From IMG/VR virus record IMGVR_UViG_3300047476_001812, positions 1 to 64,000 of that record: a DNA stretch of 64,000 nt; one strand, given 5' to 3'. Below, one piece after another: positions 152-59,029 of the stretch (its first letter is position 1; each line of letters opens with the position of its first letter). The translations under genes were made by a program, and so were the position numbers. The notes beneath the pieces are model-generated. The model was not told the DNA's origin. It ran no database searches and saw only the letters and a list, made by a program, of their open reading frames with translations. The DNA is from a virus.

Positions 152-175
152 TCATCACTACTAGTGCGTTAGCCC
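152..175 (-). promoter_or_regulatory. class A hairpin element
   Basis: TCAT-N10-GCGTTAGC. Confidence 0.65.
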
Positions 176-214
176 TTACTAGGAATATTATATCAAGGTT
201 TATATAAAAATCCT

Positions 215-514
215 ATGGCTGTTGTGTACAAATGCAATTGTCAAGACAGTGCTAAAAATCGTGATGCCGCTAATAAGATAATTAATTTTGTTCCTTTTGA
301 ATCTGGCTGGGAAAATTCAGAAGGTGGTGCAATACTAGGTCAATGTAAACATATATTGGCTGCCAGAATTATCCGTGGGGAATTAAAAAAAGGGGATATT
401 CCTACTGACCTTCAATTTGAATTTGAAAAGGAAGAAGTTGAGAAGGAAAAATATCAAAAGGGTTATGCGGGAAATTCTTTTATGGGAAACATTAATAAAA
501 TTGGAGGTATATAA
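215..514 (+). CDS. SWIM-type zinc-finger protein
   Basis: CxC...CKH pattern (YKCNC...QCKHI). Confidence 0.6.
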   Translation: MAVVYKCNCQDSAKNRDAANKIINFVPFESGWENSEGGAILGQCKHILAARIIRGELKKGDIPTDLQFEFEKEEVEKEKYQKGYAGNSFMGNINKIGGI

Positions 515-1708
515 ATGGCAGATTATGAAAAGCCTTTAATTCATGTAGTAGACGCTAATGGCAACAAAGTTCCTGCTACTGTTTCTATGCTAACTTCTGG
601 TGGAGGCGGTGGAGGTGGTGGAGGTGGTGATGCAAGTGCAGCTAACCAAGTTATAGGAAATACATCACTAGCAAATATTGACGGTAAGTTGCCTGTATTA
701 GTCAATGGCAAAGTTCCGGTAGATATTGCCAGTCTTAGTGTAACTGTTAATAACGCAAATTTAGAGATTTCTAATGACGTAGGAAATCCTGTACCTGTTA
801 GCGGCACATTTTGGCAAGCAACACAACCTGTAAGTGCTAGTAGTTTACCTTTACCAAGCGGTGCTGCTACTAGTAGTTTGCAGACTACCGCCAATACATC
901 TTTATCTAGTATTGATACCAAGACTCCGGTATTAGGACAAGCGTTAGCTGCAGCTAGTACCCCTGTTGTTTTACCAGCCGCACAAATTACAGCACTTACA
1001 CCACCAACATCTGTTGGTATCAGTGGTACATTACCAGCTTTTGCTGCCACACCTACCTTTACAGCCAATGCTGGTACTAATTTAAACACTTCCTTATTAG
1101 CACTTGAATCGGGTGGCAATTTAGCAAGCATTAATACCAAACTACCTAGCAACCTAACTGTAAGTGCAACCAGGTTATTAGTTGATGGAAGTGGGGTAAC
1201 ACAACCTATAAGCATGGTTAATGCTCCTCTAGGGGTAGGCTATATGTCTACAGTTACGATTACTCGTGCAGCTAACACAACATCTTATACGGCTAATGAT
1301 GTTTATGGGACGGTATTTGAAATAACTAGTGTTGGAGCAAGCGGTGGCTATATATTTTTAGATAGCATTGATATTATGTTTAATATCACAAGCTTACCAA
1401 CTGGCATGGGGGGTTTTTCTGTTTATCTATATTCAAGTTCTCCTCCATCAGCTATTACAGACAACTTACCTTTTTCAGTTAGTAGCGGAGATAGAGCAAG
1501 TCTGATTACAAAACTTGGAATTGACTTAACAGCTTCCCTTGCTAGAGGCGGCGGAACTGTTGTAGCTGAAAGAGTTGATATTAAAAGAGAGATAAAATTA
1601 GCAACTGGCAGCACTTCTCTATGGGCGTATTTAGTGACTTTAGGCGCATTTACTCCTGTTGCTAATAGTGAAACTGCAACTATTACCGTAAGGAGCTTTG
1701 CGCTATGA
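515..1708 (+). CDS. probable tail/virion fibre protein
   Basis: poly-Gly linker, Ser/Thr/Ala-rich shaft, beta-rich C-terminal domain; translationally coupled to neighbours. Confidence 0.55.
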   Translation: MADYEKPLIHVVDANGNKVPATVSMLTSGGGGGGGGGGDASAANQVIGNTSLANIDGKLPVLVNGKVPVDIASLSVTVNNANLEISNDVGNPVPVSGTFWQATQPVSASSLPLPSGAATSSLQTTANTSLSSIDTKTPVLGQALAAASTPVVLPAAQITALTPPTSVGISGTLPAFAATPTFTANAGTNLNTSLLALESGGNLASINTKLPSNLTVSATRLLVDGSGVTQPISMVNAPLGVGYMSTVTITRAANTTSYTANDVYGTVFEITSVGASGGYIFLDSIDIMFNITSLPTGMGGFSVYLYSSSPPSAITDNLPFSVSSGDRASLITKLGIDLTASLARGGGTVVAERVDIKREIKLATGSTSLWAYLVTLGAFTPVANSETATITVRSFAL

Positions 1709-2805
1709 GACCTTCTGCTAGAAAGATGGTTGTGTTTAATAAAAAACGTCCTTCATTTCCTAACTATTACTTTCCCCTAACACCTATTGCTGACTTTATA
1801 GCAGCACGTAGTTATAATTACGGAACTTTGTATAATATAACAACATTCCCTGTATCATCTTATCCTGGAACTGCTGGAATTTTTGGGGGAGTTCTTTTAG
1901 GAGATGGTAGAGTTTTTTGTGTGCCTAGCAACTCAACTAGTGCAAGGATTTACGACCCTGCTAATGATACAGTAACAACTCCATCCGGCTCTTATCCTGG
2001 GAGTGGTGCATTTCGCGGAGGAGTTCTTTTACAAGATGGTAGGGTCTTTTGCGTACCTTTCAACTCAACTACTGCAAGGATTTATGACCCTACTAACGAT
2101 ACAGTAACAACTCCATCAGGTACTTATCCTGGAGCTACTTCATTTGCCGGAGGGGTACTTTTACAAGATGGTAGGGTGTTTTGTGTCCCGTTCAGTTCAA
2201 CTACTGCAAGGATTTATGACCCTGTTACTGACACATTAACGACTCCATCAGGTACTTATCCTGGAAATCTTATTGGTGGGGTACTTTTGTACGATGGTAG
2301 AGTTTTTTGCGTACCTCATAGTTCAAGCACAGCAAGAATTTATGACCCTGTTACTGATACAACAATAACCCCGTCAGGCACTTATCCTGGAAGTGCTTCA
2401 TTTTATGGAGGAGTTCTTTTGTCAGACGGTAGAGTTTTTTGCGTACCTCATAGTTCAAGCACAGCAAGAATTTATGACCCTGTTACTGATACATTGACAA
2501 CTCCGTCAGGCACTTATCCTGGAGCTACTTCATTTGCCGGAGGGGTACTTTTACAAGATGGTAGAGTTTTCTGTGTACCTGCTAATGCATTTGTCGCGAG
2601 GATTTACGACCCTATTACTGATACGTTGACTAACCCATCAGGTACTTATCCTGGGAGTGGTGCATTTGCTGGAGGAGTTCTCTTACAAGATGGTAGAGTT
2701 TTCTGTGTACCTAATAACTCAACTAGTGCAAGGATTTACGGATTACCCTTAAGCGAGAATCTTCCAATGGCTAGAACACATTCTGCTTTCGATAATAAAT
2801 TTTAG
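1705..2805 (+). CDS. seven-repeat beta-propeller (kelch-like) protein, possible receptor-binding protein
   Basis: 7 copies of a ~42-aa unit GGVLLxDGRVFCVP..ARIYDP..TPSGTYPG. Confidence 0.7.
   Translation: MRPSARKMVVFNKKRPSFPNYYFPLTPIADFIAARSYNYGTLYNITTFPVSSYPGTAGIFGGVLLGDGRVFCVPSNSTSARIYDPANDTVTTPSGSYPGSGAFRGGVLLQDGRVFCVPFNSTTARIYDPTNDTVTTPSGTYPGATSFAGGVLLQDGRVFCVPFSSTTARIYDPVTDTLTTPSGTYPGNLIGGVLLYDGRVFCVPHSSSTARIYDPVTDTTITPSGTYPGSASFYGGVLLSDGRVFCVPHSSSTARIYDPVTDTLTTPSGTYPGATSFAGGVLLQDGRVFCVPANAFVARIYDPITDTLTNPSGTYPGSGAFAGGVLLQDGRVFCVPNNSTSARIYGLPLSENLPMARTHSAFDNKF
1886..2740 (+). repeat. seven ~126-bp coding tandem repeats
   Basis: recurring gatggtag(a/g)gt..tt.tg.gt.cc and acttatcctgg. 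Confidence 0.85.
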
Positions 2806-2813
2806 GATTAATT

Positions 2814-3245
2814 ATGAACAAACAAGAATGGCTACTTATTCAAATTGCACAATTTCCTGAATTATCTGCTAGGGAATTAGCTGCTAAATTAAACGATAAA
2901 ATATTAGTAGATAATCCTGAACCTCAGAAAGAATTACCTCTAATGCCTTCTTTGGAAGAAATATTAGAGACAATCACGCCACAAGAACGGTTTGCTATTG
3001 CTGAAACCAAGACTTACGACAGGATTCTAGATGCTGTTAATCAGCAAAAAATTAATTGGATTATAGGCAATTTACAGACTTTAGTGGGTGGTGATGTTTT
3101 GTCTAAAGAAAGTTATGACAGGCTAATTAAACTACTTCAACAAACACAACCAGACCCAAGTTACCAAGGGCAAATTTGGTTAAGTACCGCAGAGTTAGCC
3201 GGGTTTAGTGTTGTACTGGTTAATGAAATTGAAGAGTTAATTTAG
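2814..3245 (+). CDS. hypothetical protein (tail-fibre cluster)
   Basis: 143-aa ORF co-oriented with fibre genes. Confidence 0.6.
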   Translation: MNKQEWLLIQIAQFPELSARELAAKLNDKILVDNPEPQKELPLMPSLEEILETITPQERFAIAETKTYDRILDAVNQQKINWIIGNLQTLVGGDVLSKESYDRLIKLLQQTQPDPSYQGQIWLSTAELAGFSVVLVNEIEELI

Positions 3246-4558: not shown

Positions 4559-4568
4559 TTAATCAACC

Positions 4569-4594
4569 TTACTACTGTTGGGGCAATCGCCCCA
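4569..4594 (-). promoter_or_regulatory. class A hairpin element, AATC-loop variant
   Basis: TTAC-N10 geometry; TGGGGC-AATC-GCCCCA; immediately upstream of ATPase start. Confidence 0.55.
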
Positions 4595-4610
4595 TTAACT
4601 GTGTGCGGGG

Positions 4611-7528: not shown

Positions 7529-7553
7529 TCACCACAAATAAGGCGTTAGCCTT
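7529..7553 (-). promoter_or_regulatory. class A hairpin element
   Basis: TCAC-N10; AAGGC-GTTA-GCCTT. Confidence 0.75.
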
Positions 7554-9437: not shown

Positions 9438-9462
9438 TCAAAAAACATTCAGGCGTTAGCCT
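9438..9462 (-). promoter_or_regulatory. class A hairpin element
   Basis: TCAA-N11; AGGC-GTTA-GCCT. Confidence 0.7.
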
Positions 9463-9488
9463 TGTTCTTCCCTTGACAAACAACTTAG

Positions 9489-9896: not shown

Positions 9897-9940
9897 TTTA
9901 ACTACTCCTAATTAGTTTTACTCTGACCAATGCTAATGCG

Positions 9941-10348
9941 TTAGCCTTGTTCTTTTTTCTTTGGGTAAACAAACTTTACTGGCTTACCATACTCTTTTAC
10001 CTGAATAGGCTTAGGAAGTTGATTACCATATTGTAAGACAAACCAGCAATAAAACTCATTGAGGACACATTCTTTGTTTAACTTTTTGAATTGCCTTCTA
10101 GTCCAAGATTTATATTCCCTAAAAAAGAGAACCTCTTGACCTTTATAACATTCTATTACAGCCCTAACTTTACTTCCAGTAGTATTGAGTGAAAGCTCAA
10201 AGTAAGAATCAGGAAATCTGTTGTCAATTTGGCAATACTCAACATAAGTTTTACCAAAGTGTTTTACAAAGAAATTTAGGGTGATGCCTTTCACCCCAAT
10301 CTTAAAACTACCATCATAGTGGTAGGAATCTATTTCAGTTATTTGCAT
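9941..10348 (-). CDS. hypothetical protein
   Basis: 135-aa ORF. Confidence 0.6.
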   Translation of the reverse strand: MQITEIDSYHYDGSFKIGVKGITLNFFVKHFGKTYVEYCQIDNRFPDSYFELSLNTTGSKVRAVIECYKGQEVLFFREYKSWTRRQFKKLNKECVLNEFYCWFVLQYGNQLPKPIQVKEYGKPVKFVYPKKKEQG

Positions 10349-10922: not shown

Positions 10923-10947
10923 TCACTACTAAATTGGCGTTAGCCAA
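10923..10947 (-). promoter_or_regulatory. class A hairpin element
   Basis: TCAC-N10; TTGGC-GTTA-GCCAA. Confidence 0.75.
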
Positions 10948-11989: not shown

Positions 11990-12012
11990 TCACCAACACT
12001 AAGGCGTTAGCC
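11990..12012 (-). promoter_or_regulatory. class A hairpin element
   Basis: TCAC-N10-GCGTTAGC. Confidence 0.7.
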
Positions 12013-12069
12013 ATTTATTCAACTAGTTAAATAATTAAGGGAGACCTTGTAGCCTCCCTTGTGGTTTAT

Positions 12070-12954: not shown

Positions 12955-13012
12955 TGTTTTGTTCCTTGTGATTCTAAGTAAGACTTTATGATTCTTGTTG
13001 AGAAATTATTCC

Positions 13013-13038
13013 TCACAATTGAAGGGGCAATCGCCCCT
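13013..13038 (-). promoter_or_regulatory. class A hairpin element, AATC-loop variant
   Basis: TCAC-N10; AGGGGC-AATC-GCCCCT. Confidence 0.7.
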
Positions 13039-13109
13039 ATAGCCTTGAGGGAAGTACAGACAAATTAAAAGGGAACTTCGTGCTTCGCAAAGCTAAAGCT
13101 AAAGCTCCC

Positions 13110-13132
13110 TCACAACCACTAAGGCGTTAGCC
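13110..13132 (-). promoter_or_regulatory. class A hairpin element
   Basis: TCAC-N10-GCGTTAGC. Confidence 0.7.
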
Positions 13133-13135
13133 GCC

Positions 13136-13945: not shown

Positions 13946-14211
13946 AATAAACTCAACTGATTCCCTAGAGTTTCCATCACCACTTCTCTGGCGTTAGCCA
14001 GTCTGTAATAAGATTTTTGCCCAGACTGAGAAAGTTTAGGCAAAGAACTACAACTACCTTCTCTCAGAATAAGAATATTACATCCCTTTTTCCGTAACTT
14101 GTGAACTGCATCACCGTATCTGGCATCAGCAATTTTGGAAAGCTCATCTGAGTAATGCCATTGACCATCTTGAAGAAGGTCTAGTAAAAGGTCTTGTTTA
14201 GTTTGCAACAT
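13942..14211 (-). CDS. winged helix-turn-helix protein
   Basis: LLDLLQDGQWHYSDEL...AVHKLRKKGCNI. Confidence 0.65.
   Translation of the reverse strand: MLQTKQDLLLDLLQDGQWHYSDELSKIADARYGDAVHKLRKKGCNILILREGSCSSLPKLSQSGQKSYYRLANAREVVMETLGNQLSLL
13977..14001 (-). promoter_or_regulatory. class A hairpin element (inside 3' end of upstream gene)
   Basis: TCAC-N10; CTGGC-GTTA-GCCAG. Confidence 0.7.
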
Positions 14212-14238: not shown

Positions 14239-14263
14239 TCACAATCACTAAGGCGTTAGCCTT
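14239..14263 (-). promoter_or_regulatory. class A hairpin element
   Basis: TCAC-N10; AAGGC-GTTA-GCCTT. Confidence 0.75.
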
Positions 14264-16828: not shown

Positions 16829-16915
16829 TATTTATAGTAGCCTATGGTGTTTAATTCATAGGCTATTGCCTTATTTGTAGTGAAGATTAATAGCAAAATA
16901 AACAGGTTAACAGTT

Positions 16916-18950: not shown

Positions 18951-18974
18951 TCACAAACATTCAGGCGTTAGCCT
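18951..18974 (-). promoter_or_regulatory. class A hairpin element
   Basis: TCAC-N10; AGGC-GTTA-GCCT. Confidence 0.75.
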
Positions 18975-19110
18975 TGTTCTATTGCTTTCATTAGTCCTGA
19001 AATATTGGGATTTTCACCCCATAAACAGCCAAACTCTAGGGAGAGCTTTTCGAGTTCGGCTTTGTAATCCGGGGAGACAGAGAGCATAACGCTCTCTGAC
19101 TTTCTAGACA

Positions 19111-19874: not shown

Positions 19875-19982
19875 TTTCTCAACTACTCCTAATTTATTTA
19901 GTACCGATTCAAACCATTTTCTCGACATCAAGAAAATGGTTATCTCCAAAACTACTAAGGCGTTAGCCGTTGTTTCCTAAGA

Positions 19983-20804: not shown

Positions 20805-20829
20805 TCACTACCAGTTGGGCGTTAGCCCA
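20805..20829 (-). promoter_or_regulatory. class A hairpin element
   Basis: TCAC-N10; TGGGC-GTTA-GCCCA. Confidence 0.75.
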
Positions 20830-21194: not shown

Positions 21195-21219
21195 TCACCA
21201 CCACTAAGGCGTTAGCCTT
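21195..21219 (-). promoter_or_regulatory. class A hairpin element
   Basis: TCAC-N10; AAGGC-GTTA-GCCTT. Confidence 0.75.
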
Positions 21220-21842: not shown

Positions 21843-21882
21843 AACTATTGATTCTGTTTATCTTGCTAGTAAACATTGTACA

Positions 21883-21907
21883 TCAAAATCAAAGGGGCGA
21901 TTGCCCC
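21883..21907 (-). promoter_or_regulatory. class A hairpin element, GATT-loop variant
   Basis: TCAA-N10; GGGGC-GATT-GCCCC. Confidence 0.65.
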
Positions 21908-21949
21908 AATAATTATGAAAGGTGTTAACAAATTAACTTATATTCTTTG

Positions 21950-36432: not shown

Positions 36433-36457
36433 TCACTATTAATGGGGCAATCGCCCC
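36433..36457 (-). promoter_or_regulatory. class A hairpin element, AATC-loop variant
   Basis: TCAC-N10; GGGGC-AATC-GCCCC. Confidence 0.7.
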
Positions 36458-36678
36458 TATACTTTTGATGGTTTAACTACCGAATCCAAGCAACGCATTT
36501 ACTGGAAAATCTATTTTCTTTTTTATATTGTTGTTATTAGCTTGTGTGTCTAATCTAATTGCACTAGGGGCAACTAAATATCTATTATCAAGTTGTTGTT
36601 TTTTCATAACTCACCTGTTTATTTTGCCGAATATATTATACCATAGAGCAAGCAAAATAAACAGTGGTTGGTTAAATA

Positions 36679-37668: not shown

Positions 37669-38285
37669 AACTCTTCAGGAAGTATCAACAAACAAAGTCT
37701 ATTGCTATTAGAAATAAATTGGTAATGCTCAATGAAGGATTAGCTTATAAAGCTGCACATACAGCTAAGTTATACTGCAATGAAAGTTTTGATGACTTAT
37801 CACAAGAAGCGTTTATAGGATTGATTAGAGCGGTGGAAGACTATGACCCCTATAAAGGAACTATGTTTTCTTCCTACGCAGTCCCTAGAATATCAGGAAA
37901 GATATTGCAATATCTTAGAGATAGGTCTAAGTTAATTAGGCTTAGTCAGTCAATGCAAAAGTTAATAGCAGACATTAAAAGGATAAGCAAACAATCAATT
38001 ACTGTAGAGGAAATATGTAGACAATTAAATATTACTCAGGAAGAATATCAACTAGCTATTGGTGCTTATGCTGCATCTACTCATCTTCATTCTATTGATG
38101 ATGATAGTGATGATAGAAAACCACTAGAGTTACCATCACATGATAATCAAATAGAGGAAAGTAAAGTATTCAAAGTTGATTACAGCAATGCTACTAATGA
38201 GGAACTGAAATCTCTTACTAGTGGTGATTTAAATGTTAGAAGTATTTGGTTAATGGCAAGTAATTGGATTAAAGAAGAAGGATAA
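37659..38285 (+). CDS. sigma-70 family sigma factor (SigB/F/G-like), region 4 apparently degenerate
   Basis: RNKLVMLNEGLA, DLSQEAFIGLIRAVEDYDP.KG..FSSYAVPRISGKILQYLRD. Confidence 0.88.
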   Translation: MSIELFRKYQQTKSIAIRNKLVMLNEGLAYKAAHTAKLYCNESFDDLSQEAFIGLIRAVEDYDPYKGTMFSSYAVPRISGKILQYLRDRSKLIRLSQSMQKLIADIKRISKQSITVEEICRQLNITQEEYQLAIGAYAASTHLHSIDDDSDDRKPLELPSHDNQIEESKVFKVDYSNATNEELKSLTSGDLNVRSIWLMASNWIKEEG

Positions 38286-38286
38286 T

Positions 38287-40248
38287 ATGACATTTAGGAT
38301 ACCAACACTTACATCTGCTGATGACGTTGCTGTATGGTTGAGTGGGGCAAAACAACAGCTTGATGATTACTTTGTTCAGCTACCCGCTTCTCATTATGAT
38401 GAGTTTTTCTCGCATCTTCCTGCCGCTGAACAATTAGTAGAAGCACAGGCAATGAGAAATGCAGAACAAAAAAACTATTTGCTAGAAATAGAAAGACAAG
38501 CTAAAAGATTTGGGTACAAACCAGAAAGAAGAAGAGTTGAAGAAGCAGTATCAGGTGGTGACATAGATACGGAATTTGTTCCTGAAAATGCTCCAGTTAA
38601 TTCTCAAGCACGTTCTGCTAAAGCTCCTCAAGGTGCAATCCGAATTGAAGGTGATATTTTTATGCCTTTAGAAGAAGAGCAAGCAATGAGAGAGCAGTTC
38701 AGAGGAAAAGGAAATGCTTTCTTTGATGAATTAAAAAAGAGAGGGTTAATTCAAGTATTAACTCCTGAAGGAAATAGGGTAGTTCCAAAGAAGTATGCAA
38801 TTTTTGATGAAACACTAGGAGAAAGAGGTAGGTATACTCTCAAGCCTGAAGTCCAATCGTATTTAGAATCCAGGAAAGTCAATACTCCTCAAGGTGTAGT
38901 AAGTCAACCCATTGCTGAAACCCCTCTTGTACAATCGTCTCCTCTTCCCAATAATGCTGAATCCGAAGCAACCTTAAATGATTTAGATAATCTCTTTTTA
39001 AACTCACAAACTCAACCTACCCCCCAAGAAGTTCCGGGAACTGTAACAACTATCTCTACAGATAATGGGGCAATTGCCCCAGACGTTGTGAGCGTATTAT
39101 CAACACAGCCGGGGTTTAGTGTAGTTCCAGAACCCGTATCTTATAGCCCACTACCCATACCAGAAGGAACTCCTGAGAGTGGTATTAATCGTAGTGTTTA
39201 CCCTGGAAGTAAAGCTGTATCTACTTCTTCCGGTATTCCTATGAGTGGAGGTGGTGGGAGTATTCCCCCTAAACCCCCCACAGGTGGTGGTAACTATGAC
39301 TTTGATGGGGAAGAGTTTAACCGTCAGAATAACTACACTCCTTACGGTGGCACACCCAACCATCCAGAAATACCAGGATTAAATGACCCTGTAGATGCTG
39401 ACGCAAATCTTAAATGGTTATGGGAAAGAAATCAACGAGAAACGCAAGCCCGTCAACAATATCTAAACGACAAGGCAAGACAAGTGGCTGATACTGGTAG
39501 TTGGTGGGGGAATGTATGGGATGGAGTTGGTAGAGGTTTTAATTATTCTGTTGAAGCTGGCAGAATGCCTGGTAGAACGGCATCTGTAATATGGAATCGC
39601 GCACCTAAAAAAGAATATGAACATCTTACTCCTGAAGGTAAAGCAGCTTTTTTTGGTGGCAGGGTTGCTGGAGAAATAGGTAATGGAACTAAACAAGTAT
39701 TATGGGAACTACATCCTGATGACTTTACCGCTACCCATTCTGTAAGAGCAGTTAGAGAGTCCGGTGGTAATCGTATAGCTCAAGTTTTGATACCTTATAT
39801 GACAACAACCGCATTGCAGCTAGGGTCACAAACCTATAACCCATTTAACCTGGGTGAAGGCGGTAGGGTTGCAGGATATCAAGCTATTAATCCTGATGAG
39901 GATGACCCACGTATTTCTACATCACCAGTGAGTGAGTTATTAATTGACAGAGGATTGTTAGGTAGAAGAGGTAAGCTACTTCCTTGGGAGCAATTTAGAC
40001 AAGAAAGAACTGATATCCCCTATGAACAGTATCAGAAGTATCAAGACTATTTACGTAATAAAGATGATAACTTCCTAAGAGATGCTACCGGGGGACTAAT
40101 TAAGGGGACTATGGATGGAATTAATGGACCAGAGTTGTCAGTGATGGGTTATTCTGTCACACCTACTGGGGCGTTAGCCGCCGGGGCTGCACTGTTAGCG
40201 GGTAGGGAATTAGTTAGAACAGGAAGAATAGCAGGGTTAAGGAAGTAA
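38287..40248 (+). CDS. probable internal virion protein
   Basis: 653 aa, P/G-rich linker, C-terminal Ala/Gly helix. Confidence 0.55.
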   Translation: MTFRIPTLTSADDVAVWLSGAKQQLDDYFVQLPASHYDEFFSHLPAAEQLVEAQAMRNAEQKNYLLEIERQAKRFGYKPERRRVEEAVSGGDIDTEFVPENAPVNSQARSAKAPQGAIRIEGDIFMPLEEEQAMREQFRGKGNAFFDELKKRGLIQVLTPEGNRVVPKKYAIFDETLGERGRYTLKPEVQSYLESRKVNTPQGVVSQPIAETPLVQSSPLPNNAESEATLNDLDNLFLNSQTQPTPQEVPGTVTTISTDNGAIAPDVVSVLSTQPGFSVVPEPVSYSPLPIPEGTPESGINRSVYPGSKAVSTSSGIPMSGGGGSIPPKPPTGGGNYDFDGEEFNRQNNYTPYGGTPNHPEIPGLNDPVDADANLKWLWERNQRETQARQQYLNDKARQVADTGSWWGNVWDGVGRGFNYSVEAGRMPGRTASVIWNRAPKKEYEHLTPEGKAAFFGGRVAGEIGNGTKQVLWELHPDDFTATHSVRAVRESGGNRIAQVLIPYMTTTALQLGSQTYNPFNLGEGGRVAGYQAINPDEDDPRISTSPVSELLIDRGLLGRRGKLLPWEQFRQERTDIPYEQYQKYQDYLRNKDDNFLRDATGGLIKGTMDGINGPELSVMGYSVTPTGALAAGAALLAGRELVRTGRIAGLRK

Positions 40249-44360: not shown

Positions 44361-44386
44361 TCACCATCATTAAGGCGTTAGCCTTA
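44361..44386 (-). promoter_or_regulatory. class A hairpin element
   Basis: TCAC-N10; TAAGGC-GTTA-GCCTTA. Confidence 0.75.
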
Positions 44387-48306: not shown

Positions 48307-48405
48307 AACTTTAACTTCTGTTTATTTTGCTATTGGTTATTATAACCTGCAAGGTAACAAAAGAAAAGGGGCATGGTAGCCCCTAAATTTTATTTAATAC
48401 ACTTA

Positions 48406-48474
48406 AACTACATCAAACTAAATAGGGGCGTAGCCCCCATGTTTCAAACTTCACAAATAATTAGGCGTTAGCCT
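48406..48474 (-). promoter_or_regulatory. adjacent class B (48406-48440) and class A (48451-48474) elements
   Basis: GGGGC-GTA-GCCCC with AACTAC at N16; TCAC-N10-GCGTTAGC. Confidence 0.75.
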
Positions 48475-48575
48475 TGCCCCCTATTCTTAGTATAAAAACA
48501 CTAGGAATAGGGGGCTTCCAGTCAATTACCTGCCTGAACCGCGTTCCATAAGAAACTCCATTTATTGCTAATACT

Positions 48576-48600
48576 TCAATTCTAATGGGGCAATCGCCCC
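48576..48600 (-). promoter_or_regulatory. class A hairpin element, AATC-loop variant
   Basis: TCAA-N10; GGGGC-AATC-GCCCC. Confidence 0.65.
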
Positions 48601-48669
48601 TGTACCACTGGGAAAAGTGGGGAGGATAATCCCCAGTGGTAGTCATCAGGTCAGGCTAGGGAACACCAC

Positions 48670-49662: not shown

Positions 49663-49707
49663 AACTACAACTACAAAAAAAATAGAACGCGTAGCGCACA
49701 TAAAAAA
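49663..49707 (-). promoter_or_regulatory. class B hairpin element
   Basis: AACTAC-N14; CGC-GTA-GCG; CATAAAAA. Confidence 0.7.
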
Positions 49708-50206: not shown

Positions 50207-50226
50207 GATAAGCTCCAATCAAATAA

Positions 50227-50267
50227 AACTACAAACAAAAAAAAGGGAGCGTAGCTCCCCATAAAAA
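50227..50267 (-). promoter_or_regulatory. class B hairpin element
   Basis: AACTAC-N16; GGGAGC-GTA-GCTCCC; CATAAAAA. Confidence 0.78.
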
Positions 50268-50569: not shown

Positions 50570-50644
50570 TTTCTTTTTCTCCGATTAGTTAATTTCCACC
50601 AAAAGTAATTAGGCGTTAGCCTTGTACTTGCTAACGCCAACCAA

Positions 50645-51358: not shown

Positions 51359-51371
51359 AGCCAAGTAAATA

Positions 51372-51432
51372 AACTACAACTAAATAATTTAGGAGCGTAG
51401 CGACCATAAAAAAAGGTGGCTTTTACACCACC
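51372..51432 (-). promoter_or_regulatory. class B element fused to terminator of upstream gene
   Basis: AACTAC-N17-GCGTAGC; A7 tract then GGTGG/CCACC hairpin. Confidence 0.75.
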
Positions 51433-51634: not shown

Positions 51635-51650
51635 AATAGACCCCAAATTA

Positions 51651-51691
51651 AACTACAACTAACTAATAGGAGCGTAGCGACCATAAAAAAA
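51651..51691 (-). promoter_or_regulatory. class B hairpin element
   Basis: AACTAC-N15-GCGTAGCGACCATAAAAAAA. Confidence 0.78.
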
Positions 51692-52152: not shown

Positions 52153-52169
52153 GCCAATAAACCACCATA

Positions 52170-52209
52170 AACTACACCTATTTTGCAGGAGCGTAGCGAC
52201 TCATAAAAA
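52170..52209 (-). promoter_or_regulatory. class B hairpin element
   Basis: AACTAC-N15-GCGTAGCGACTCATAAAAA. Confidence 0.78.
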
Positions 52210-52434: not shown

Positions 52435-52484
52435 ATACTTAACACTTCACTACTTATAAGGCGTTAGCCCTGTACTTTGTATGC

Positions 52485-54568: not shown

Positions 54569-54582
54569 GATAAAATCCCATT

Positions 54583-54640
54583 GATTACGCCACAAACAGG
54601 AAGCGTAGCGACCATAAAAAAAGGAGGGACTAAGCCCTCC
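54583..54640 (-). promoter_or_regulatory. class B element fused to terminator
   Basis: GATTAC-N14-GCGTAGCGACCATAAAAAAA then GGAGGG/CCCTCC hairpin. Confidence 0.7.
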
Positions 54641-54840: not shown

Positions 54841-54855
54841 AACCAAACCTGAATT

Positions 54856-54894
54856 AACTACAACTATATATAGGGAGCGTAGCGACCATAAAAA
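54856..54894 (-). promoter_or_regulatory. class B hairpin element
   Basis: AACTAC-N15-GCGTAGCGACCATAAAAA. Confidence 0.78.
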
Positions 54895-55718: not shown

Positions 55719-55738
55719 AACCAAATCCTCAATACGTT

Positions 55739-55824
55739 AACTACAACAAAACTAAAGGGGCGTAGCCCCCATAAAAAACCAACATTAGACAAAGCTAACA
55801 TCAAAACCTATCAGGCGTTAGCCT
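55739..55824 (-). promoter_or_regulatory. adjacent class B and class A elements
   Basis: AACTAC-N15, GGGGC-GTA-GCCCC; TCAA-N10-GCGTTAGC. Confidence 0.75.
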
Positions 55825-55867
55825 TGTCCATGCGAAGGACAAACGGGGGAATTTAACCCCCAGGAAG

Positions 55868-56329: not shown

Positions 56330-57491
56330 TAGGAATCCTAGTTGATTTTTGAAAAAGATTCAGAGAAAATACGTATGAGAATATAAGTGTAAAAGTAGAC
56401 AATGATAAACCAGCATCTATCAAATGTATCATACCCACCAAAAGTGGCAACTGCAATTGCCGAACTACAAGACTTCATAGCAGGTTGTCGTGATGCTCGT
56501 GAAGCCAGAAAAGCCTTGGCGGTGAAATTGGTTTACCAAGATTACTTATACGAAGAGATCCAGACAATTTTAGATGTGTCTTTAGGTTCGATAACTGGTT
56601 GGAAGCAAGCTTACGAGCAAAACGGACTTAATGGCTTAAAGTTAAACCATAAAGGGCGAAAAAGCTATTTGAGTAGCGAACAACGAGAACAAGTGTTAAG
56701 TTGGTTGCAAACCAAGAACTGCTGGGAACTGGGGGAATTGGAGTACAAATTAGCCTTTGAATATGATGTGGTTTATGAGTCAAAGCAAAGTTACTATGAT
56801 TTATTCGATGCTGCTGACATAGCTTGGAAGAAGACCACAAAGTTAAATCCCAAAGCCAACCCAGAGGCTGTGGCAGAAAAAAAAAAGAGATTGAAACACT
56901 ACTGGCAAGCAAGCGTTCCGAAATAGAAACCGGAAAATTGAGGGTATTATTAATTGATGAGTGTCATTTAATGTGGGGAGACTTAAGTGGCTATGTCTGG
57001 GGGAGAACTGATACAGAAATCACAGTTCCAGTGGTGAATGAGCGCAATAAACAAACATATTATGGGGCAGTTGATTATCTTGAAGGAAAATTGCTGCTTA
57101 GAGCTTACGATAAGGGGAACTCAGAAAATACAATTGATTATCTGCGATATTTACTAAATGAGTCTGGCGAGCAACAATTGTTACTTTTTTGGGATGGTGC
57201 GACCTATCATCGTTCCAAAGAAATTCAAGAGTTTTTGGATGAAGTTAATCAAGGTTTGACAATTGACCAATGGAAAATACGCTGCGTCCGTTTTGCACCC
57301 AATTGTCCAGAACAAAATCCTATTGAGGATATTTGGTTACAAGCCAAAACATGGGTGCGGCGTTTTTGTGCCTTAATTCCAACATTCTCACATTTGAAAT
57401 GGATGTTTGAATGGTTTATTCGACACACTACCTTTGATTTTGCCACTCTTCAGATGTACGGATTTTTTTCAAAAATCAAATAGGAGTCCTA
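56330..57491 (+). mobile_element. IS630-family insertion sequence
   Basis: ~27-bp terminal IRs TAGGA(A/C)TCCTA(G/T)TTGATTTTTGAAAAA; TA flanks at 56328-56329 and 57492-57493. Confidence 0.93.
56402..57483 (+). CDS. IS630 transposase, two ORFs joined by a -1 frameshift
   Basis: HTH orfA 56402-56926; orfB with IDE, WDGATYH, PEQNPIEDIW; A10 slippery run at 56877-56886. Confidence 0.9.
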
Positions 57492-57538
57492 TAGACAGGG
57501 CGTAGCCCACATAAAAAAAGGGGCAATTGCCCCTGTAC

Positions 57539-58102
57539 TTATGACTTAGAAAGTCTCATAGCCTCCTCGTTAGGAGAATACTTGAAACCGCAAGATTCAA
57601 GTAACTCACGTAGGTTCAGATTAATGCGAGTGTCGTAATAGAAGGCGATATTGCCTTCTATAGAGTTGATTGCCATTTCAATGAAGGTCTTTAGCTTGAG
57701 GTCTAAGTTATCTTGAGCTAACCACCATTTATGGTCATTGAGGTCGTCCCCACTAGCAGGGACTTCCTGTCCATTCACTTTAATAGAGAGCAGTTGCTCT
57801 CCTGTTAGTGGGCAAACCTCAAGATGGACTTTGATGGATTCACCCAGATTAACCTTGCCTTGGTTGGCAAGGGTTCTTTCGCAAATTGCATCCAAGACCT
57901 TTGGAGGAATTTCCTCCACAAAGAATTCACATCTATTTAGCCGATTGATACTCCAGCGCTGCTGGAATTTGCAGCGGTGGTGTTGTAAATAGGCACACAA
58001 TTTGTCCCCTAAATAGCTGGGGACGCATACCATGTAAGCAGGTATGCGAGATGAACATTTCCACTCAGGGATATACAAAACCTCAAATCTTGGGTCAGAC
58101 AT
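57539..58102 (-). CDS. hypothetical early-type protein
   Basis: 187 aa; class B element upstream; terminator-like GGGGC-AATT-GCCCC plus U tract downstream. Confidence 0.7.
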   Translation of the reverse strand: MSDPRFEVLYIPEWKCSSRIPAYMVCVPSYLGDKLCAYLQHHRCKFQQRWSINRLNRCEFFVEEIPPKVLDAICERTLANQGKVNLGESIKVHLEVCPLTGEQLLSIKVNGQEVPASGDDLNDHKWWLAQDNLDLKLKTFIEMAINSIEGNIAFYYDTRINLNLRELLESCGFKYSPNEEAMRLSKS

Positions 58103-58116
58103 AACAAAACCTGGTT

Positions 58117-58158
58117 AACTACGCCAATTGGTTGGGAGCGTAGCGAACATAAAAAAAA
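58117..58158 (-). promoter_or_regulatory. class B hairpin element
   Basis: AACTAC-N15-GCGTAGCGAACATAAAAAAAA. Confidence 0.78.
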
Positions 58159-58474: not shown

Positions 58475-58480
58475 CTTGTC

Positions 58481-58520
58481 AACTACACCAATTGGTTGGG
58501 AGCGTAGCGACCCATAAAAA
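58481..58520 (-). promoter_or_regulatory. class B hairpin element (rightmost)
   Basis: AACTAC-N15-GCGTAGCGACCCATAAAAA. Confidence 0.78.
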
Positions 58521-58595
58521 CATTTATTGGTTAAAAATTGAGGGCATCACCCCCTTTTTTCTTTTGGTTAAAATAATATATATAGATTAGGTTTG

Positions 58596-58678
58596 CCCCC
58601 TCAAATATATATAAATAATATAGTGACGTTATTGAAACTTCCCCCTCAAATATATATAAATAATATAGTGACGTTATT
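58596..58678. repeat. 38-bp perfect direct repeat x2 (45-bp period)
   Basis: CCCCCTCAAATATATATAAATAATATAGTGACGTTATT at 58596 and 58641. Confidence 0.9.
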
Positions 58679-58796
58679 CAAATTTATAAGGTCAAAAAAA
58701 TATATATAAAACTGTACACATACGCAAAAGAAAATATCCACCCTAACTCGCATAGGATGGATAAAGTGAAGTAGTTAAAGTGTATTCTTATAGTTC

Positions 58797-58940
58797 CTAA
58801 AAACCATAATGTAAATAACGGTTTTCAACTGAGTTGAGATATTCGTTTTCATAGTATTCGTCTTCTTCTATTTCCAGTTGTAGGGACGTAATAACATCAG
58901 CAAATAGATTGAGAGTTTTGTCAAGAAGTAGCGTAGTCAT
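58797..58940 (-). CDS. 47-aa acidic peptide (not in ORF track)
   Basis: MTTLLLDKTLNLFADV...; class A element at 58960-58984 directly upstream. Confidence 0.55.
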   Translation of the reverse strand: MTTLLLDKTLNLFADVITSLQLEIEEDEYYENEYLNSVENRYLHYGF

Positions 58941-59029
58941 AAATCACAAATTACAAACATCACCACTTCTAAGGCGTTAGCCTTTGTAATAGGAAAACTA
59001 CTGCAAGCAAAACAAATACAGGATTTAAA

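What the first reader, a model, noticed from the sequence alone, without database searches (positions are those of the whole stretch)
152..58984. Candidate new transcription system: YonO/RdRP-like phage RNA polymerase plus ~49 template-strand DNA-hairpin promoters
Seen: an 808-aa DxDGD polymerase gene (32227-34653) and two families of fixed-geometry hairpin elements that lie roughly 10-170 nt upstream of most minus-strand genes, including the polymerase gene itself. The GTTA or GTA loop lies on the template strand of the downstream gene. Established: SPbeta YonO is a single-subunit double-psi-barrel DNA-dependent RNA polymerase related to eukaryotic RNAi RdRPs. N4 virion RNAP (a T7-like, unrelated fold) recognises template-strand hairpins with GNA triloops, and GC-GNA-GC is an exceptionally stable DNA mini-hairpin. 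Inference: this polymerase starts transcription from extruded hairpins, converging on the N4 mechanism. I do not know of hairpin promoters described for YonO-like enzymes, but I cannot search the literature.
Basis: partly seen in the sequence, partly recalled or inferred. Interest (0 to 1): 0.95.

Follow-up and report, generated by a model that had tools for sequence, protein, structure and literature searches.

The report
Mini-hairpin promoters of a cyanophage polymerase
A freshwater cyanophage carries an RNA polymerase built like the enzymes of eukaryotic RNA interference, and in front of most of its leftward genes sit tiny DNA hairpin motifs (GCGTTAGC, GCGTAGC) that recur with relatives of this polymerase in other phages and are most likely its promoters, a kind of promoter so far known only from the unrelated polymerase of phage N4.

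Summary
GCGTTAGC occurs 37 times in the window (0.6 expected), 32 on the + strand. GCGTAGC occurs 15 times (1.5 expected), 14 on the + strand. In the window 32 of 56 minus-strand genes, and none of 29 plus-strand genes, have an element within 200 nt upstream (median about 42 nt). In 24 of the 32 + strand GTTA sites a TCA lies exactly 16 nt before the loop, and the stems covary.

The 808-aa protein folds like QDE-1/RDR2 and like Thermus phage gp64, with an invariant DxDGD loop. Similarity to YonO itself was not significant.

Relatives with polymerases only 25-47% identical carry G(N)TA-loop hairpins (GTTA, GATA, GGTA, GCTA, GTA) on the template strand of the adjacent small genes. One inverted gene block carries them on the other strand. 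The terminase-related phage S-EIVl has neither polymerase nor motif.

Both cores match the published "mini-hairpin DNA" consensus GCGNNAGC/GCGNAGC on the template strand only.

Best reading: these are promoters of the phage polymerase, probably recognised as template-strand hairpins. No start sites could be obtained. The first-stage scan noted the same elements on this genome.

The parts
32227..34653 (-). 808-aa single-subunit two-barrel RNA polymerase (QDE-1/RdRP-like), catalytic loop D425-T-D427-G428-D429
   Evidence: ORF and motif. D425, D427, G428 and D429 are invariant in 27 homologues. AF2 pLDDT 85.6. Foldseek: QDE-1 E 1.8e-15, RDR2, Thermus phage gp62/gp64 about 1e-9.
34654..34801 (-). 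Structured leader of about 150 nt for the polymerase gene: a 19-bp hairpin plus T-run (34799-34758) and a second hairpin
37623..38285 (+). Phage SigF-like (group 3) sigma factor, probably for plus-strand late genes
   Evidence: phrog_351 2e-30; Sigma70_r2; NF005644 SigF 1.4e-37
23667..24380 (-). Phage SSB; a possible helper for hairpin promoters (inference)
   Evidence: PF00436 1.8e-16; phrog_44
21950..23581 (-). UvrD-like SF1 helicase; a possible helper (inference)
   Evidence: PF00580 and PF13361; phrog_1967
152..176 (+). GTTA element, TCA at -16; repeated at the record's right end upstream of 79538-79858(-)
7529..7553 (+). GTTA element, 44 nt before ATG 7499(-)
9924..9948 (+). GTTA element (TGA at -16), 42 nt before 9896(-)
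10923..10947 (+). GTTA element, stem TTGGC/GCCAA, 54 nt before 10883(-)
11990..12014 (+). GTTA element, 42 nt before 11962(-)
13110..13134 (+). GTTA element, 170 nt before 12954(-)
13977..14001 (+). GTTA element, stem CTGGC/GCCAG, 46 nt before 13945(-)
14239..14263 (+). GTTA element in a divergent region, 42 nt before 14211(-)
18951..18975 (+). GTTA element, 52 nt before 18913(-)
19946..19970 (+). GTTA element (CCA at -16), 11 nt before annotated start 19949(-)
20805..20829 (+). GTTA element, stem TGGGC/GCCCA, 37 nt before 20782(-)
21195..21219 (+). GTTA element, 60 nt before 21149(-)
23645..23669 (+). GTTA element, stem AAGC/GCTT, 78 nt before the helicase gene start 23581(-)
24371..24395 (+). 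GTTA element at the annotated start of the SSB gene; the true start is probably further in
25757..25781 (+). GTTA element, stem AATGC/GCATT (orthologue in L004 has AAGGC/GCCTT), 65 nt before 25706(-)
26096..26120 (+). GTTA element, stem GGGGC/GCCCC, 33 nt before 26077(-)
34802..34826 (+). GTTA element 163 nt before the polymerase ATG
35039..35063 (+). GTTA element, 33 nt before 35020(-)
44361..44385 (+). GTTA element in a divergent region, 37 nt before 44338(-)
48451..48475 (+). GTTA element in tandem with the GTA element at 48402-48443, upstream of 48306(-)
50599..50623 (+). GTTA element (CCA at -16), 44 nt before 50569(-); an inverted second copy lies at 50630-50637
52447..52471 (+). GTTA element upstream of the 52213-52434(-) ORF
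55801..55825 (+). GTTA element in tandem with the GTA element at 55734-55775, upstream of 55724(-)
58960..58984 (+). GTTA element in a divergent region, 34 nt before 58940(-); followed by TAGGAAA in front of the + gene at 59030
9439..9463 (+). GTTA core near the 5' end of ORF 8851-9492(-); function possible
27847..27871 (+). GTTA core with stem TTTGGC/GCCAAA inside the 1951-aa ORF, kept in relatives; a possible internal promoter or coding conservation
927..951 (+). GTTA core inside an ORF without TCA; probably not functional. The cores at 26173-26197, 48988-49012 and 62225-62249 likewise lack the TCA (62225-62249 lies in an intergenic gap). Those at 16171-16195 (intergenic) and 40157-40181 (inside a + gene) keep the TCA but have no minus-strand gene downstream.
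35341..35382 (+). GTA element, stem GGTGC/GCACC
35423..35464 (+). GTA element in a divergent region, 42 nt before 35407(-); heads the unit that runs into the polymerase gene
48402..48443 (+). GTA element, stem GGGGC/GCCCC
49663..49704 (+). GTA element, stem CGC/GCG, 129 nt before 49560(-)
50223..50264 (+). GTA element, stem GGGAGC/GCTCCC, 31 nt before 50218(-)
51369..51410 (+). GTA element preceded by a terminator (51433-51414), 31 nt before 51364(-)
51646..51687 (+). GTA element preceded by a terminator (51713-51692), 26 nt before 51646(-)
52165..52206 (+). GTA element, 39 nt before 52152(-)
54577..54618 (+). GTA element preceded by a terminator (54641-54622)
54851..54892 (+). GTA element
55734..55775 (+). 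GTA element, stem GGGGC/GCCCC, 36 nt before 55724(-)
57474..57515 (+). GTA element next to the GGGGCAATTGCCCC hairpin at 57519-57534
58112..58153 (+). GTA element preceded by a terminator (58180-58158), 36 nt before 58102(-)
58476..58517 (+). GTA element, 28 nt before 58474(-)
4568..4606 (.). GGGGC-AATC-GCCCC hairpin, 23 nt before 4558(-)
13012..13050 (.). GGGGC-AATC-GCCCC hairpin with TCA at -16 on both strands
21882..21920 (.). GGGGC-GATT-GCCCC hairpin with TCA at -16 on both strands, upstream of 21842(-)
36432..36470 (.). GGGGC-AATC-GCCCC hairpin in a divergent region with TCA at -16 on both strands; candidate bidirectional promoter for 36372(-) and the + operon from 36528
39055..39093 (.). 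GGGGC-AATT-GCCCC hairpin inside a + gene, TCA at -16 on the minus strand only
48575..48613 (.). GGGGC-AATC-GCCCC hairpin, TCA at -16 on the + strand
57508..57546 (.). GGGGC-AATT-GCCCC hairpin plus T-run; also scores as a minus-strand terminator
16858..16886 (-). Minus-strand variant TTCACTACAAATAAGGC-AATA-GCCT at the head of the + strand DnaB gene

Best explanation
The GTTA, GTA and AAT(C/T) hairpin elements are the promoters of the phage's own single-subunit, QDE-1/RdRP-like two-barrel RNA polymerase (32227-34653).

Each element has two parts on the template strand. The first is a GC-clamped mini-hairpin: GGC-GTTA-GCC, GC-GTA-GC or GGGGC-AATY-GCCCC. The second is a pyrimidine-A-C initiator (TCAC(C)AC or ACTACAAC) that lies further along in the direction of transcription, at a fixed distance (TCA 16 nt from the loop in the GTTA class). 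The gene's ribosome-binding site and ATG follow 20-60 nt later.

Most likely mechanism (inferred, not shown): the polymerase binds the template-strand hairpin, whose G(N)TA loop closed by C-G forms the unusually stable 'mini-hairpin DNA'. It starts RNA synthesis at the initiator, as N4 virion RNAP does at its GNA-loop hairpins. Negative supercoiling, the phage SSB and the UvrD-like helicase may help.

Minus-strand early and replication genes are arranged as terminator-promoter-gene cassettes. GTA and GTTA elements are sometimes in tandem before one gene, which suggests two strengths or two times of use. The long plus-strand structural operons have few such elements and are probably read by host RNAP with the phage SigF-like sigma factor.
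For: 1. Enrichment and strand bias: 37 against 0.6 and 15 against 1.5 expected; 46 of 52 on the + strand.
2. Fixed geometry: TCA at -16 in 29 hairpins against 0-6 at other offsets.
3. Elements lie at heads, not tails, of transcription units. 32 of 56 minus genes and 0 of 29 plus genes have one within 200 nt upstream. GTTA cores: 7 in divergent and 14 in tandem-minus intergenic regions, against 1 in a convergent region.
4. Stem covariation: GC35/AU5/UA1, AU26/GC4/UA4, AU12/UA8/GC3. Covariation score 0.251 against 0.123 in shuffles (0 of 500 reach it) and 0.03-0.20 with slid partners. The orthologous site at 25771 has AATGC/GCATT here and AAGGC/GCCTT in L004.
5. The protein has the QDE-1/RDR2 fold and an invariant DxDGD loop.
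6. Co-occurrence with the polymerase family:
   - L002-L005 (81-88% identity) and L006 (47%) keep GGCGTTAGCC on the template strand, with TCA at -15 in L006. The complete L006 record has at least 20 forward and no reverse GCGTTAGC among the rows listed.
   - L113 (29%) has 10 copies of GGC-GATA-GCC just upstream of co-oriented small genes, about 30-35 nt upstream at four of them.
   - L020 (27%) has GGC-GGTA-GCC.
   - L016 has the same motif on the other strand, before genes of the other orientation.
   - L008 (25%) has AGC-GTA-GCT with TCAC at -16.
   - Over 2.14 Mb of loci around homologues, GSC-G(N)TA-GSC occurs 120 times on the polymerase's template strand and 23 times on the other.
   - S-EIVl (TerL 43% identical) has no detectable polymerase and no enriched or strand-biased motif.
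7. GCGNNAGC and GCGNAGC are the published mini-hairpin DNA consensus: Tm 69.5 C for GCGTTAGC, 70 C for GCGTAGC, 71 C for GCGATAGC. N4 vRNAP promoters contain GCGGAGC or GCGAAGC (PMC13037366; PMC4496689). Only the template strand matches.
8. Related enzymes prefer single-stranded DNA: crAss gp66, and QDE-1 with RPA and a helicase (bioRxiv 10.1101/2020.03.07.982082).
Against: - There are no transcription start sites. The four RNA runs are contigs only and give no 5' ends or strand.
- Stems are short (3-6 bp). Extrusion from duplex DNA is energetically demanding, and nearest-neighbour folding does not separate the two strands (-4.2 against -4.1 kcal/mol).
- About 8 of the 14 GTA elements have only the 2-bp clamp and read more like a conserved sequence than a hairpin. 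Some GTA hairpins followed by T-runs also score as terminators.
- The AATY loops do not fit the GNNA rule.
- The polymerase gene itself sits behind such elements, so the first round of its expression is unexplained: host RNAP or a packaged enzyme would be needed.
- A phage sigma factor exists.
- Most loci around the cellular homologues of the polymerase show no TCA-hairpin spike.
Confidence: 0.55

Rival explanations
1. The elements are promoters of the same phage polymerase, but they are read as ordinary double-stranded sequence, as T7 RNAP reads its 23-bp promoter. The palindrome would reflect the enzyme's contact pattern, or a second role such as a binding site for a regulator, and not an extruded hairpin.
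For: - The conserved block of about 27 nt is contiguous, like T7-type promoters.
- Stems are short, and many GTA sites have only a 2-bp clamp.
- For Thermus phage gp64, the nearest phage structure, a GC-rich promoter motif was reported and no hairpin is mentioned (PMC10770324).
- Folding energies are the same on both strands.
Against: - Base identity at stem positions 3-5 changes while pairing is kept. Duplex readout does not need this.
- Across lineages the loop keeps G...TA while the middle base and stems vary.
- The cores coincide exactly with the mini-hairpin consensus, on one strand only.
Confidence: 0.2
2. The hairpins act in RNA, not DNA. They would be 5'-UTR stem-loops (GGC-UAAC-GCC) that stabilise mRNAs, mark processing sites or bind a translational regulator, with promoters lying elsewhere.
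For: - The elements lie 20-60 nt before start codons.
- Covariation is equally expected for an RNA stem.
- Phages such as T7 have intergenic processing hairpins (general knowledge).
Against: - Nothing is conserved upstream of the hairpins that could serve as the promoter, apart from an A/T run. This includes the divergent regions where an element heads the unit.
- The conserved loop rule (GNTA, GTA) fits the DNA template strand. The RNA would carry UANC or UAC, which is not a known stable loop family (for the DNA rule; own knowledge for RNA).
- The TCA spacing lies on the 3' side in RNA sense, where an initiator fits better than an RNA element.
Confidence: 0.08
3. The elements are promoters for host RNA polymerase directed by the phage SigF-like sigma factor (37623-38285) or by a host sigma. 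The 808-aa protein would have another role.
For: - The phage encodes a group 3 sigma.
- Synechocystis SigF promoters have TAGGC at -32 (PMC2532724), and many elements contain TA(A)GGC.
- Four plus-strand operon heads combine the hairpin with a TAGGAAT box 35-41 nt before the ATG.
Against: - In the orientation that serves the minus-strand genes there is no two-block -35/-10 or -32/-12 layout.
- In the opposite orientation, 27 of the 36 elements would fire antisense into the preceding gene.
- No -12-like box follows most elements.
- Sigma recognition does not explain stem covariation.
- The motif tracks the polymerase family in other genomes.
- Sigma-70-type matches are not enriched: 35 found against 43.5 expected.
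Confidence: 0.05
4. The mini-hairpins are single-strand initiation (priming) signals for DNA replication, like the GCGTTAGC hairpin at the primase-dependent origins of phages St-1 and alpha3. The 808-aa enzyme would make primers rather than mRNAs.
For: - St-1 and alpha3 carry GCGTTAGC, and G4 carries GCGAAAGC, at their primase start sites (PMC13037366).
- The strand bias is strong.
- No conventional primase was recognised among the proteins scanned.
- The enzyme family likes single-stranded DNA.
Against: - Orientation follows the neighbouring gene, not a replication direction: reversed elements sit before the plus-strand DnaB and other plus genes, and the gene block in L016 is inverted together with its elements.
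- There is one element per small gene, at 5'-UTR distance.
- Terminator-element-gene cassettes make sense for transcription, not priming.
Confidence: 0.05

Closest known systems
Bacteriophage N4 virion RNA polymerase and its early promoters
   Same: The promoter is a small hairpin on the template strand with a GNA-type loop closed by GC pairs (GCGGAGC or GCGAAGC). It has conserved and freely covarying stem positions, a start at a fixed distance downstream, and help from supercoiling and SSB (PMC4496689; PMC13037366). The GTA class here (GCGTAGC) fits the same mini-hairpin rule.
   Different: N4 vRNAP is a T7-like right-hand polymerase of 3500 aa packaged in the virion. The enzyme here has the two-barrel QDE-1 fold, so any likeness is convergent. 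N4 has 3 such promoters; this phage has about 45. The main loop here is a tetraloop (GTTA). The start site and the dependence on SSB or gyrase are untested.
QDE-1 / RDR2, the eukaryotic RNAi RNA-dependent RNA polymerases (Pfam PF05183)
   Same: Best structural matches: E 1.8e-15, TM 0.56 over the query. The DxDGD catalytic loop is shared, and 4 of 27 family members reach PF05183. QDE-1 transcribes single-stranded DNA with RPA and a helicase.
   Different: Those are cellular enzymes with no known promoter. Sequence identity is 11-15%. The protein here gets no Pfam hit of its own.
Thermus phage P23-45 gp64 / P74-26 gp62 non-virion two-barrel RNAP
   Same: A phage-encoded minimal two-barrel RNAP that transcribes phage genes from its own GC-rich promoter motif (PMC10770324). 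It is the next-best structural match (8f5m and 8f72, E about 1e-9).
   Different: It is smaller (about 590 aa). The paper mentions no hairpin in its promoter. That phage has a second, tape-measure-fused virion RNAP, for which no counterpart was found here.
crAss-like phage phi14:2 gp66 virion RNAP
   Same: QDE-1-like fold and a strong preference for single-stranded DNA templates. It is a weaker structural match (6vr4, E 4e-5).
   Different: It is a 2180-aa virion protein, and no common motif was found upstream of its early transcripts.
SPbeta YonO
   Same: A single-chain two-barrel DNA-dependent RNAP of a phage that transcribes a set of phage genes. Its promoter sequence is not determined (PMC5467207).
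   Different: Similarity is not significant (hhalign probability 0.2, E 0.27), and there is no GCGN(N)AGC near its mapped start region.
Primase-dependent complementary-strand origins of phages G4, St-1 and alpha3
   Same: They contain the same mini-hairpin cores (GCGAAAGC, GCGTTAGC) on single-stranded DNA where an RNA chain is started.
   Different: There is one site per genome, used by host DnaG primase for replication, with no relation to gene starts.

Membership tests
Two-barrel (double-psi beta-barrel) RNA polymerases, QDE-1/RdRP branch | Overall fold matches solved members | tested here: met
   AF2 model pLDDT 85.6, pTM 0.80. Foldseek: QDE-1 2j7n E 1.8e-15, probability 1.00; RDR2; gp62/gp64; gp96; gp66; then beta' subunits of cellular RNAPs.
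Two-barrel (double-psi beta-barrel) RNA polymerases, QDE-1/RdRP branch | Catalytic DxDGD (metal-binding) loop | tested here: met
   RDTDGDF at 424-430. D425, D427, G428 and D429 are invariant in 27 homologues down to 26% identity.
Two-barrel (double-psi beta-barrel) RNA polymerases, QDE-1/RdRP branch | Sequence-profile membership (Pfam PF05183 RdRP) | tested here: inconclusive
   No Pfam hit for this protein. 4 of 27 aligned relatives hit PF05183, best E 1.2e-5. Profile against PDB sequences finds nothing.
Two-barrel (double-psi beta-barrel) RNA polymerases, QDE-1/RdRP branch | DNA-templated RNA synthesis activity | not testable with these tools
   Needs purified protein.
YonO family (SPbeta) | Detectable sequence homology to YonO | tested here: not met
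   hhalign of A1 against YonO: probability 0.2, E 0.27. tblastn of the protein against 50,697 phage records including SPbeta found no match.
N4-type DNA-hairpin promoters | Short inverted repeat with a 3-nt GNA loop, GC-clamped, on the template strand | tested here: met
   The GTA class GCGTAGC is on the + strand, which is the template of the minus genes. The GTTA class is the tetraloop analogue GCGNNAGC.
N4-type DNA-hairpin promoters | Stem positions free to vary if pairing is kept | tested here: met
   (GTTA class); perfect GTA stems of five different sequences
N4-type DNA-hairpin promoters | Transcription start at a fixed distance from the loop | not testable with these tools
   Only the conserved TCA at -16 is seen. 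RNA runs gave no 5' ends.
N4-type DNA-hairpin promoters | Hairpin extrusion dependent on supercoiling and SSB | not testable with these tools
   A phage SSB gene is present, but that is no test.
N4-type DNA-hairpin promoters | Recognised by a T7-like (right-hand) virion RNAP | tested here: not met
   The only polymerase found has the two-barrel fold. It therefore works like N4 but is not a member.
Mini-hairpin DNA (GCGNNAGC / GCGNAGC) | Sequence matches the consensus, with a G...A loop closed by C-G | tested here: met
   GCGTTAGC and GCGTAGC here; GCGATAGC, GCGGTAGC and GCGCTAGC in relatives. All are covered by the GCGNNAGC/GCGNAGC rule; measured Tm values were seen for GCGTTAGC, GCGTAGC and GCGATAGC (PMC13037366). 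The AATY class does not match.
Sigma-70-family promoters | Two conserved blocks at -35/-10 (or -32/-12) spacing on the non-template strand | tested here: not met
   One contiguous block; no enrichment of sigma-70-type sites.

The most novel reading that the evidence does not exclude
A whole clade of QDE-1/RdRP-like single-subunit RNA polymerases, in phages and mobile elements of cyanobacteria (670 clusters at E <= 0.001), initiates transcription at template-strand mini-hairpin DNA (GSC-G(N)TA-GSC) followed by a YCAC initiator. This would be a second, independent invention of the N4 hairpin-promoter principle, on the polymerase fold from which eukaryotic RNAi RdRPs are thought to derive. It would imply that structure-specific initiation on single-stranded DNA is an ancestral trait of that lineage.
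Probability: 0.4. Interest if true: 0.9.

Novelty: new variant of a known kind. Interest (0 to 1): 0.85.

Why it matters
The papers read here report a GC-rich promoter motif for P23-45 gp64, no common motif for crAss gp66, and an undetermined promoter for YonO. None of them describes a hairpin promoter for a two-barrel phage RNAP. This finding gives a concrete, sequence-defined promoter candidate of about 27 nt, with about 45 natural variants in one genome and diverged versions in several lineages. A purified enzyme can therefore be tested at once.

If the hairpin reading is right, three things follow:
- Promoter recognition through extruded DNA hairpins arose twice, on unrelated polymerase folds.
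- The puzzling preference of QDE-1-like enzymes for single-stranded DNA is linked to a physiological mode of initiation.
- A small orthogonal polymerase-promoter pair for cyanobacteria becomes available.

The finding also suggests a natural role for the 'mini-hairpin DNA' motif.

Tried and rejected
1. RNA evidence. One search found four metatranscriptomes holding 7-11% of the words of 48601-58600. Laid on 39001-59000, they are Logan contigs only: no 5' ends, no strand, and patchy cover. Nothing can be said about start sites or about parts without cover.
3. Sequence-only searches of the polymerase found nothing useful: Pfam, PDB sequences, megablast and tblastn against phages gave no match, and only PHROG 34895 (unknown function) hit.
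4. Nearest-neighbour DNA folding of both strands gave equal energies. That model has no term for GNA or GNNA loops, so it cannot decide which strand folds.
5. I looked for a general TCA-N12-hairpin spike in all 160 loci around homologues. There is none outside the close relatives and L008. The apparent hit in L108 is a CRISPR array.
6. A second polymerase was sought. No other ORF carries a DxDGD or DxDxD polymerase-like loop in a large protein. The 1951-aa neighbour has no hit in Pfam, PHROGs, NCBIfam or the Atlas.
7. The 'GGTGA' of the initiator as a Shine-Dalgarno sequence was rejected: it lies 19-64 nt from the ATG, and proper AAGGAG-type sites lie closer.
8. Circularity. The last 117 nt equal positions 75-191, but positions 1-74 are not repeated, so the ends are not a simple circular overlap.

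Full report
**What the window is**

The window is bases 1-64000 of a 79,924-bp IMG/VR virus record. Recognisable genes:
- DnaB-like helicase (16880-18265 +), a replication initiator (15035-16168 +), a UvrD-like helicase (21950-23581 -) and SSB (23667-24380 -);
- large terminase (45670-47181 +) and a portal-like structural protein (59874-62054 +);
- a SigF-like sigma factor (37623-38285 +).

The terminase is closest to the polar freshwater cyanophage S-EIVl (43% identity, 79-kb genome). The DNA occurs in freshwater and lake metagenomes. Homologues of the polymerase are found almost only in filamentous cyanobacteria and their plasmids, such as Pseudanabaena, Microcoleus, Phormidium, Spirulina and Coleofasciculus. 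The object is therefore a freshwater cyanophage. The host genus is unknown.

**The observation**

It is real.
- GCGTTAGC occurs 37 times against 0.58 expected, 32 of them on the + strand.
- GCGTAGC occurs 15 times against 1.52 expected, 14 on the + strand.
- Aligned on the core, the GTTA class reads tt.c.TCAc.acta.T.aGGCGTTAGCC.t on the + strand.
- Among all GC-closed hairpins with 3-4-nt loops on the + strand of the record, TCA lies 16 nt before the loop start in 29 cases and in 0-6 cases at any other offset.
- The GTA class reads AACTACAaCTA-N5-aGGgA-GCGTAGC-GACC-CATAAAAA and is confined to 35.3-35.5 kb and 48.4-58.5 kb.
- A third type, GGGGC-AAT(C/T)-GCCCC, has the same TCA spacing. At four sites of the record it has this spacing on both strands, among them the divergent regions at 36449 and 74581.
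- In the window, 32 of 56 minus-strand genes have a core within 200 nt upstream (median about 42 nt), against none of 29 plus-strand genes for the reverse orientation.
- Two thirds of the GTTA cores lie in the 14% of the record that is intergenic. They are in tandem-minus (14) and divergent (7) regions; only one is in a convergent region.

About eight GTTA cores are probably bystanders: they lie inside ORFs or have no minus-strand gene downstream, and most lack the TCA.

**Are they hairpins?**

For 46 GTTA sites (this phage, L004 and L006), the two inner pairs are invariant. The next three covary: GC35/AU5/UA1, AU26/GC4/UA4 and AU12/UA8/GC3. The covariation score is 0.251, against 0.123 in column shuffles (0 of 500 reach it) and 0.03-0.20 with slid partners. 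One orthologous site shows a double change: AATGC/GCATT here and AAGGC/GCCTT in L004. So pairing as such is under selection in the GTTA class.

The GTA class is mixed. Five or six copies have perfect 3-6-bp stems of different sequences (GGTGC, GGGGC, GGGAGC, GGGC, CGC). About eight share GGAGCGTAGCGACC, where only the 2-bp clamp pairs.

**Which strand?**

Thermodynamic folding cannot tell, but the literature can. GCGNNAGC and GCGNAGC are the consensus of 'mini-hairpin DNA', a three-pair structure with a sheared G-A pair. Measured melting points are 69.5 C for GCGTTAGC, 70 C for GCGTAGC and 71 C for GCGATAGC. The same review lists N4 early promoters (GCGGAGC or GCGAAGC) and the primase start sites of G4, St-1 and alpha3 (the latter two with GCGTTAGC) as natural cases (PMC13037366). 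Here the consensus is met on the + strand, the template of the minus-strand genes. The complement (GCTAACGC, GCTACGC) does not fit.

**The polymerase**

The 808-aa protein has no Pfam, NCBIfam or PDB-sequence hit. With an alignment of 27 homologues it folds confidently (pLDDT 85.6, pTM 0.80).
- Foldseek ranks QDE-1 first (E 1.8e-15), then plant RDR2.
- Next come the minimal non-virion RNAPs of Thermus phages (P74-26 gp62 and 8f72 'phage P32 gp64', about 1e-9), P23-45 gp96 and crAss gp66, and then cellular beta' subunits.
- D425, D427, G428 and D429 are invariant.
- Four relatives reach Pfam RdRP.
- A profile search of 1.84 billion representatives finds 670 clusters (280 at E <= 1e-30).
- Against SPbeta YonO the profile comparison is not significant (E 0.27), although the DxDGD loops are aligned.

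'QDE-1/RdRP-like' is therefore the accurate label, not 'YonO-like'.

**Link between motif and polymerase**

This is the strongest new evidence.
- Close relatives (81-88% identity) keep the elements.
- L006, a complete 75.7-kb genome with a 47%-identical polymerase, has at least 20 forward and no reverse GCGTTAGC among the rows listed, and places TCA at -15 instead of -16.
- L113 (Spirulina assembly, 29% identity) has ten copies of aaaaaaCAyCA..CTCTT.GGC-GATA-GCC on the template strand of an array of small genes that leads to the polymerase gene, each just upstream of a co-oriented ORF (about 30-35 nt at four of them).
- L020 and L016 (27%) have CGACTACCACAATAAGGC-GGTA-GCC. In L016 the gene block is inverted and the motif is on the other strand, 33-43 nt before the minus-strand starts.
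- L025 has GGC-GATA-GCC, and the Pseudanabaena loci have GGC-GCTA-GCC followed by an A-run.
- L008 (25%) has ACTCACCCCCCCCGT-AGC-GTA-GCT about 40 nt before plus-strand genes, again with TCA 16 nt from the loop.
- L007 has TTTCC-GTC-GGAAA.

Summed over 2.14 Mb around homologues, GSC-G(N)TA-GSC occurs 120 times on the polymerase's template strand and 23 times on the other. These counts include near-duplicate relatives. The loop rule across lineages is G-(N)-T-A.

Conversely, S-EIVl shares the terminase lineage, genome size and small-gene arrays. It shows no match to the polymerase profile and only scattered, unbiased GCGN(N)AGC matches.

**How it most likely works**

Shown:
- the motif, its geometry and its covariation;
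- its position at the heads of transcription units, and orientation that follows the gene;
- its association with the polymerase family;
- the fold and catalytic loop of the enzyme.

Inferred:
- The enzyme binds the template-strand mini-hairpin and starts at the YCAC initiator, probably opposite the C of TCA, giving 5' UTRs of 20-60 nt.
- Extrusion is helped by supercoiling, and by the SSB and UvrD-like helicase encoded on the same strand. The parallels are N4 (gyrase and SSB) and QDE-1 (RPA and the QDE-3 helicase).

In the 48-58.5-kb region, intrinsic terminators are enriched on the minus strand (34 found against 11.4 expected). Several stand directly before GTA elements, forming terminator, T-run, ATGG, hairpin, initiator and gene. 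GTA and GTTA elements stand in tandem before two genes (48428/48465 and 55760/55815), which suggests two classes of strength or timing for one enzyme. No second polymerase was found.

The polymerase gene has a GTTA element 163 nt upstream, followed by a structured leader with a terminator-like hairpin, and two GTA elements further up. How the first polymerase molecules arise is open.

**Plus-strand genes**

A few reversed elements precede plus-strand genes: 16867 before dnaB, and 36452 and 74584 in divergent regions. Four plus-strand operon heads instead share the hairpin plus a TAGGAA(T/A) box 35-41 nt before the ATG. This recalls the TAGGC/GGTAA promoters of Synechocystis SigF and fits the phage's SigF-like sigma. 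That suggests a division of labour, but it rests on four sites.

**Rivals**

- Duplex recognition by the same enzyme remains possible (0.2). It does not explain the covariation or the one-strand mini-hairpin match.
- RNA-level stem-loops (0.08) would leave the units without promoters and give loops of no known stable family.
- Sigma-dependent promoters (0.05) do not fit the layout, and in the sigma-compatible orientation most would fire antisense.
- Priming signals (0.05) are suggested by the St-1 and alpha3 precedent, but orientation follows genes, not replication.

**Novelty**

In the searched library I found no description of hairpin promoters for any two-barrel RNAP. YonO's promoter is undetermined. 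Early transcripts made by gp66 lack a common motif. For gp64 only a GC-rich motif is described. The library lacks most subscription journals, so absence is not proof.

I rate the finding a new variant of known kinds: phage single-subunit RNAP plus cognate promoters, and hairpin promoters. It joins two features not seen together before. First-stage notes of this scan on the same genome describe the same elements. They are not independent evidence.

Noticed in passing
window 166-186 and 58974-58996; genome 72271-72291 and 76936-76955 (L162:12271-12291 and 16936-16955): Four plus-strand operon heads share (A/G)CGTTAGCC-N6-8-TAGGAA(T/A), with the box 35-41 nt before the ATG. These are possible promoters for the phage SigF-like sigma that reuse the hairpin's left arm as a -32 element (Synechocystis SigF: TAGGC/GGTAA).
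   Followed up: partly
window 26129-31984 (-): A 1951-aa ORF directly downstream of the polymerase gene has no hit in Pfam, PHROGs, NCBIfam or the ESM Atlas. It carries two internal GCGTTAGC cores that are conserved in relatives.
   Followed up: partly
window 54925-55430: An ORF-free stretch with a + strand TTGTCA-18-TATATT promoter match. RNA contigs from two studies cover 54987-55423 at the highest depth of the laid stretch, so this is probably an abundant non-coding RNA.
   Followed up: partly
window 56328-57493: RNA contigs from several runs match only this block and continue into unlike sequence at both ends. One contig skips 56641-56993. It looks like a mobile unit shared with other genomes.
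   Followed up: no
L162:4753-5568 (-) and L162:6646-7545 (-) (genome 64753-65568 and 66646-67545): Two paralogous endonuclease genes (phrog_4645) lie antisense within the plus-strand structural region. The first has its own TCAC-N10-GGCGTTAGCC element 75 nt upstream (65643). Earlier notes call these LAGLIDADG genes inside group I introns of the capsid gene; I did not check the introns.
   Followed up: partly
window 1748-2833: Six tandem copies of a repeat of about 132 nt inside the 366-aa ORF 1705-2805 (+), encoding a repetitive protein.
   Followed up: no
window 75-191 and genome 79808-79924: A 117-nt direct repeat lies near both ends of the record and includes one GTTA element. Positions 1-74 are not repeated, so the ends are not a plain circular overlap.
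   Followed up: partly
L108:1392-3260: A CRISPR array (repeat GTTTCACGACCATTACCCCGCAAGGGGACGGAA) lies about 7 kb from a polymerase homologue in a Pseudanabaenales MAG. It is unrelated to the promoter motif but mimicked it in the scan.
   Followed up: no
L092-L112 (Pseudanabaena, Phormidium plasmids and chromosomes): Polymerase homologues of 29-30% identity sit on large plasmids, sometimes in two or three copies per strain. Conserved GGC-GCTA-GCC-ATAAAAAA and GCC-GCTA-GGC sites lie 1-2 kb downstream. The family is not confined to phages.
   Followed up: partly
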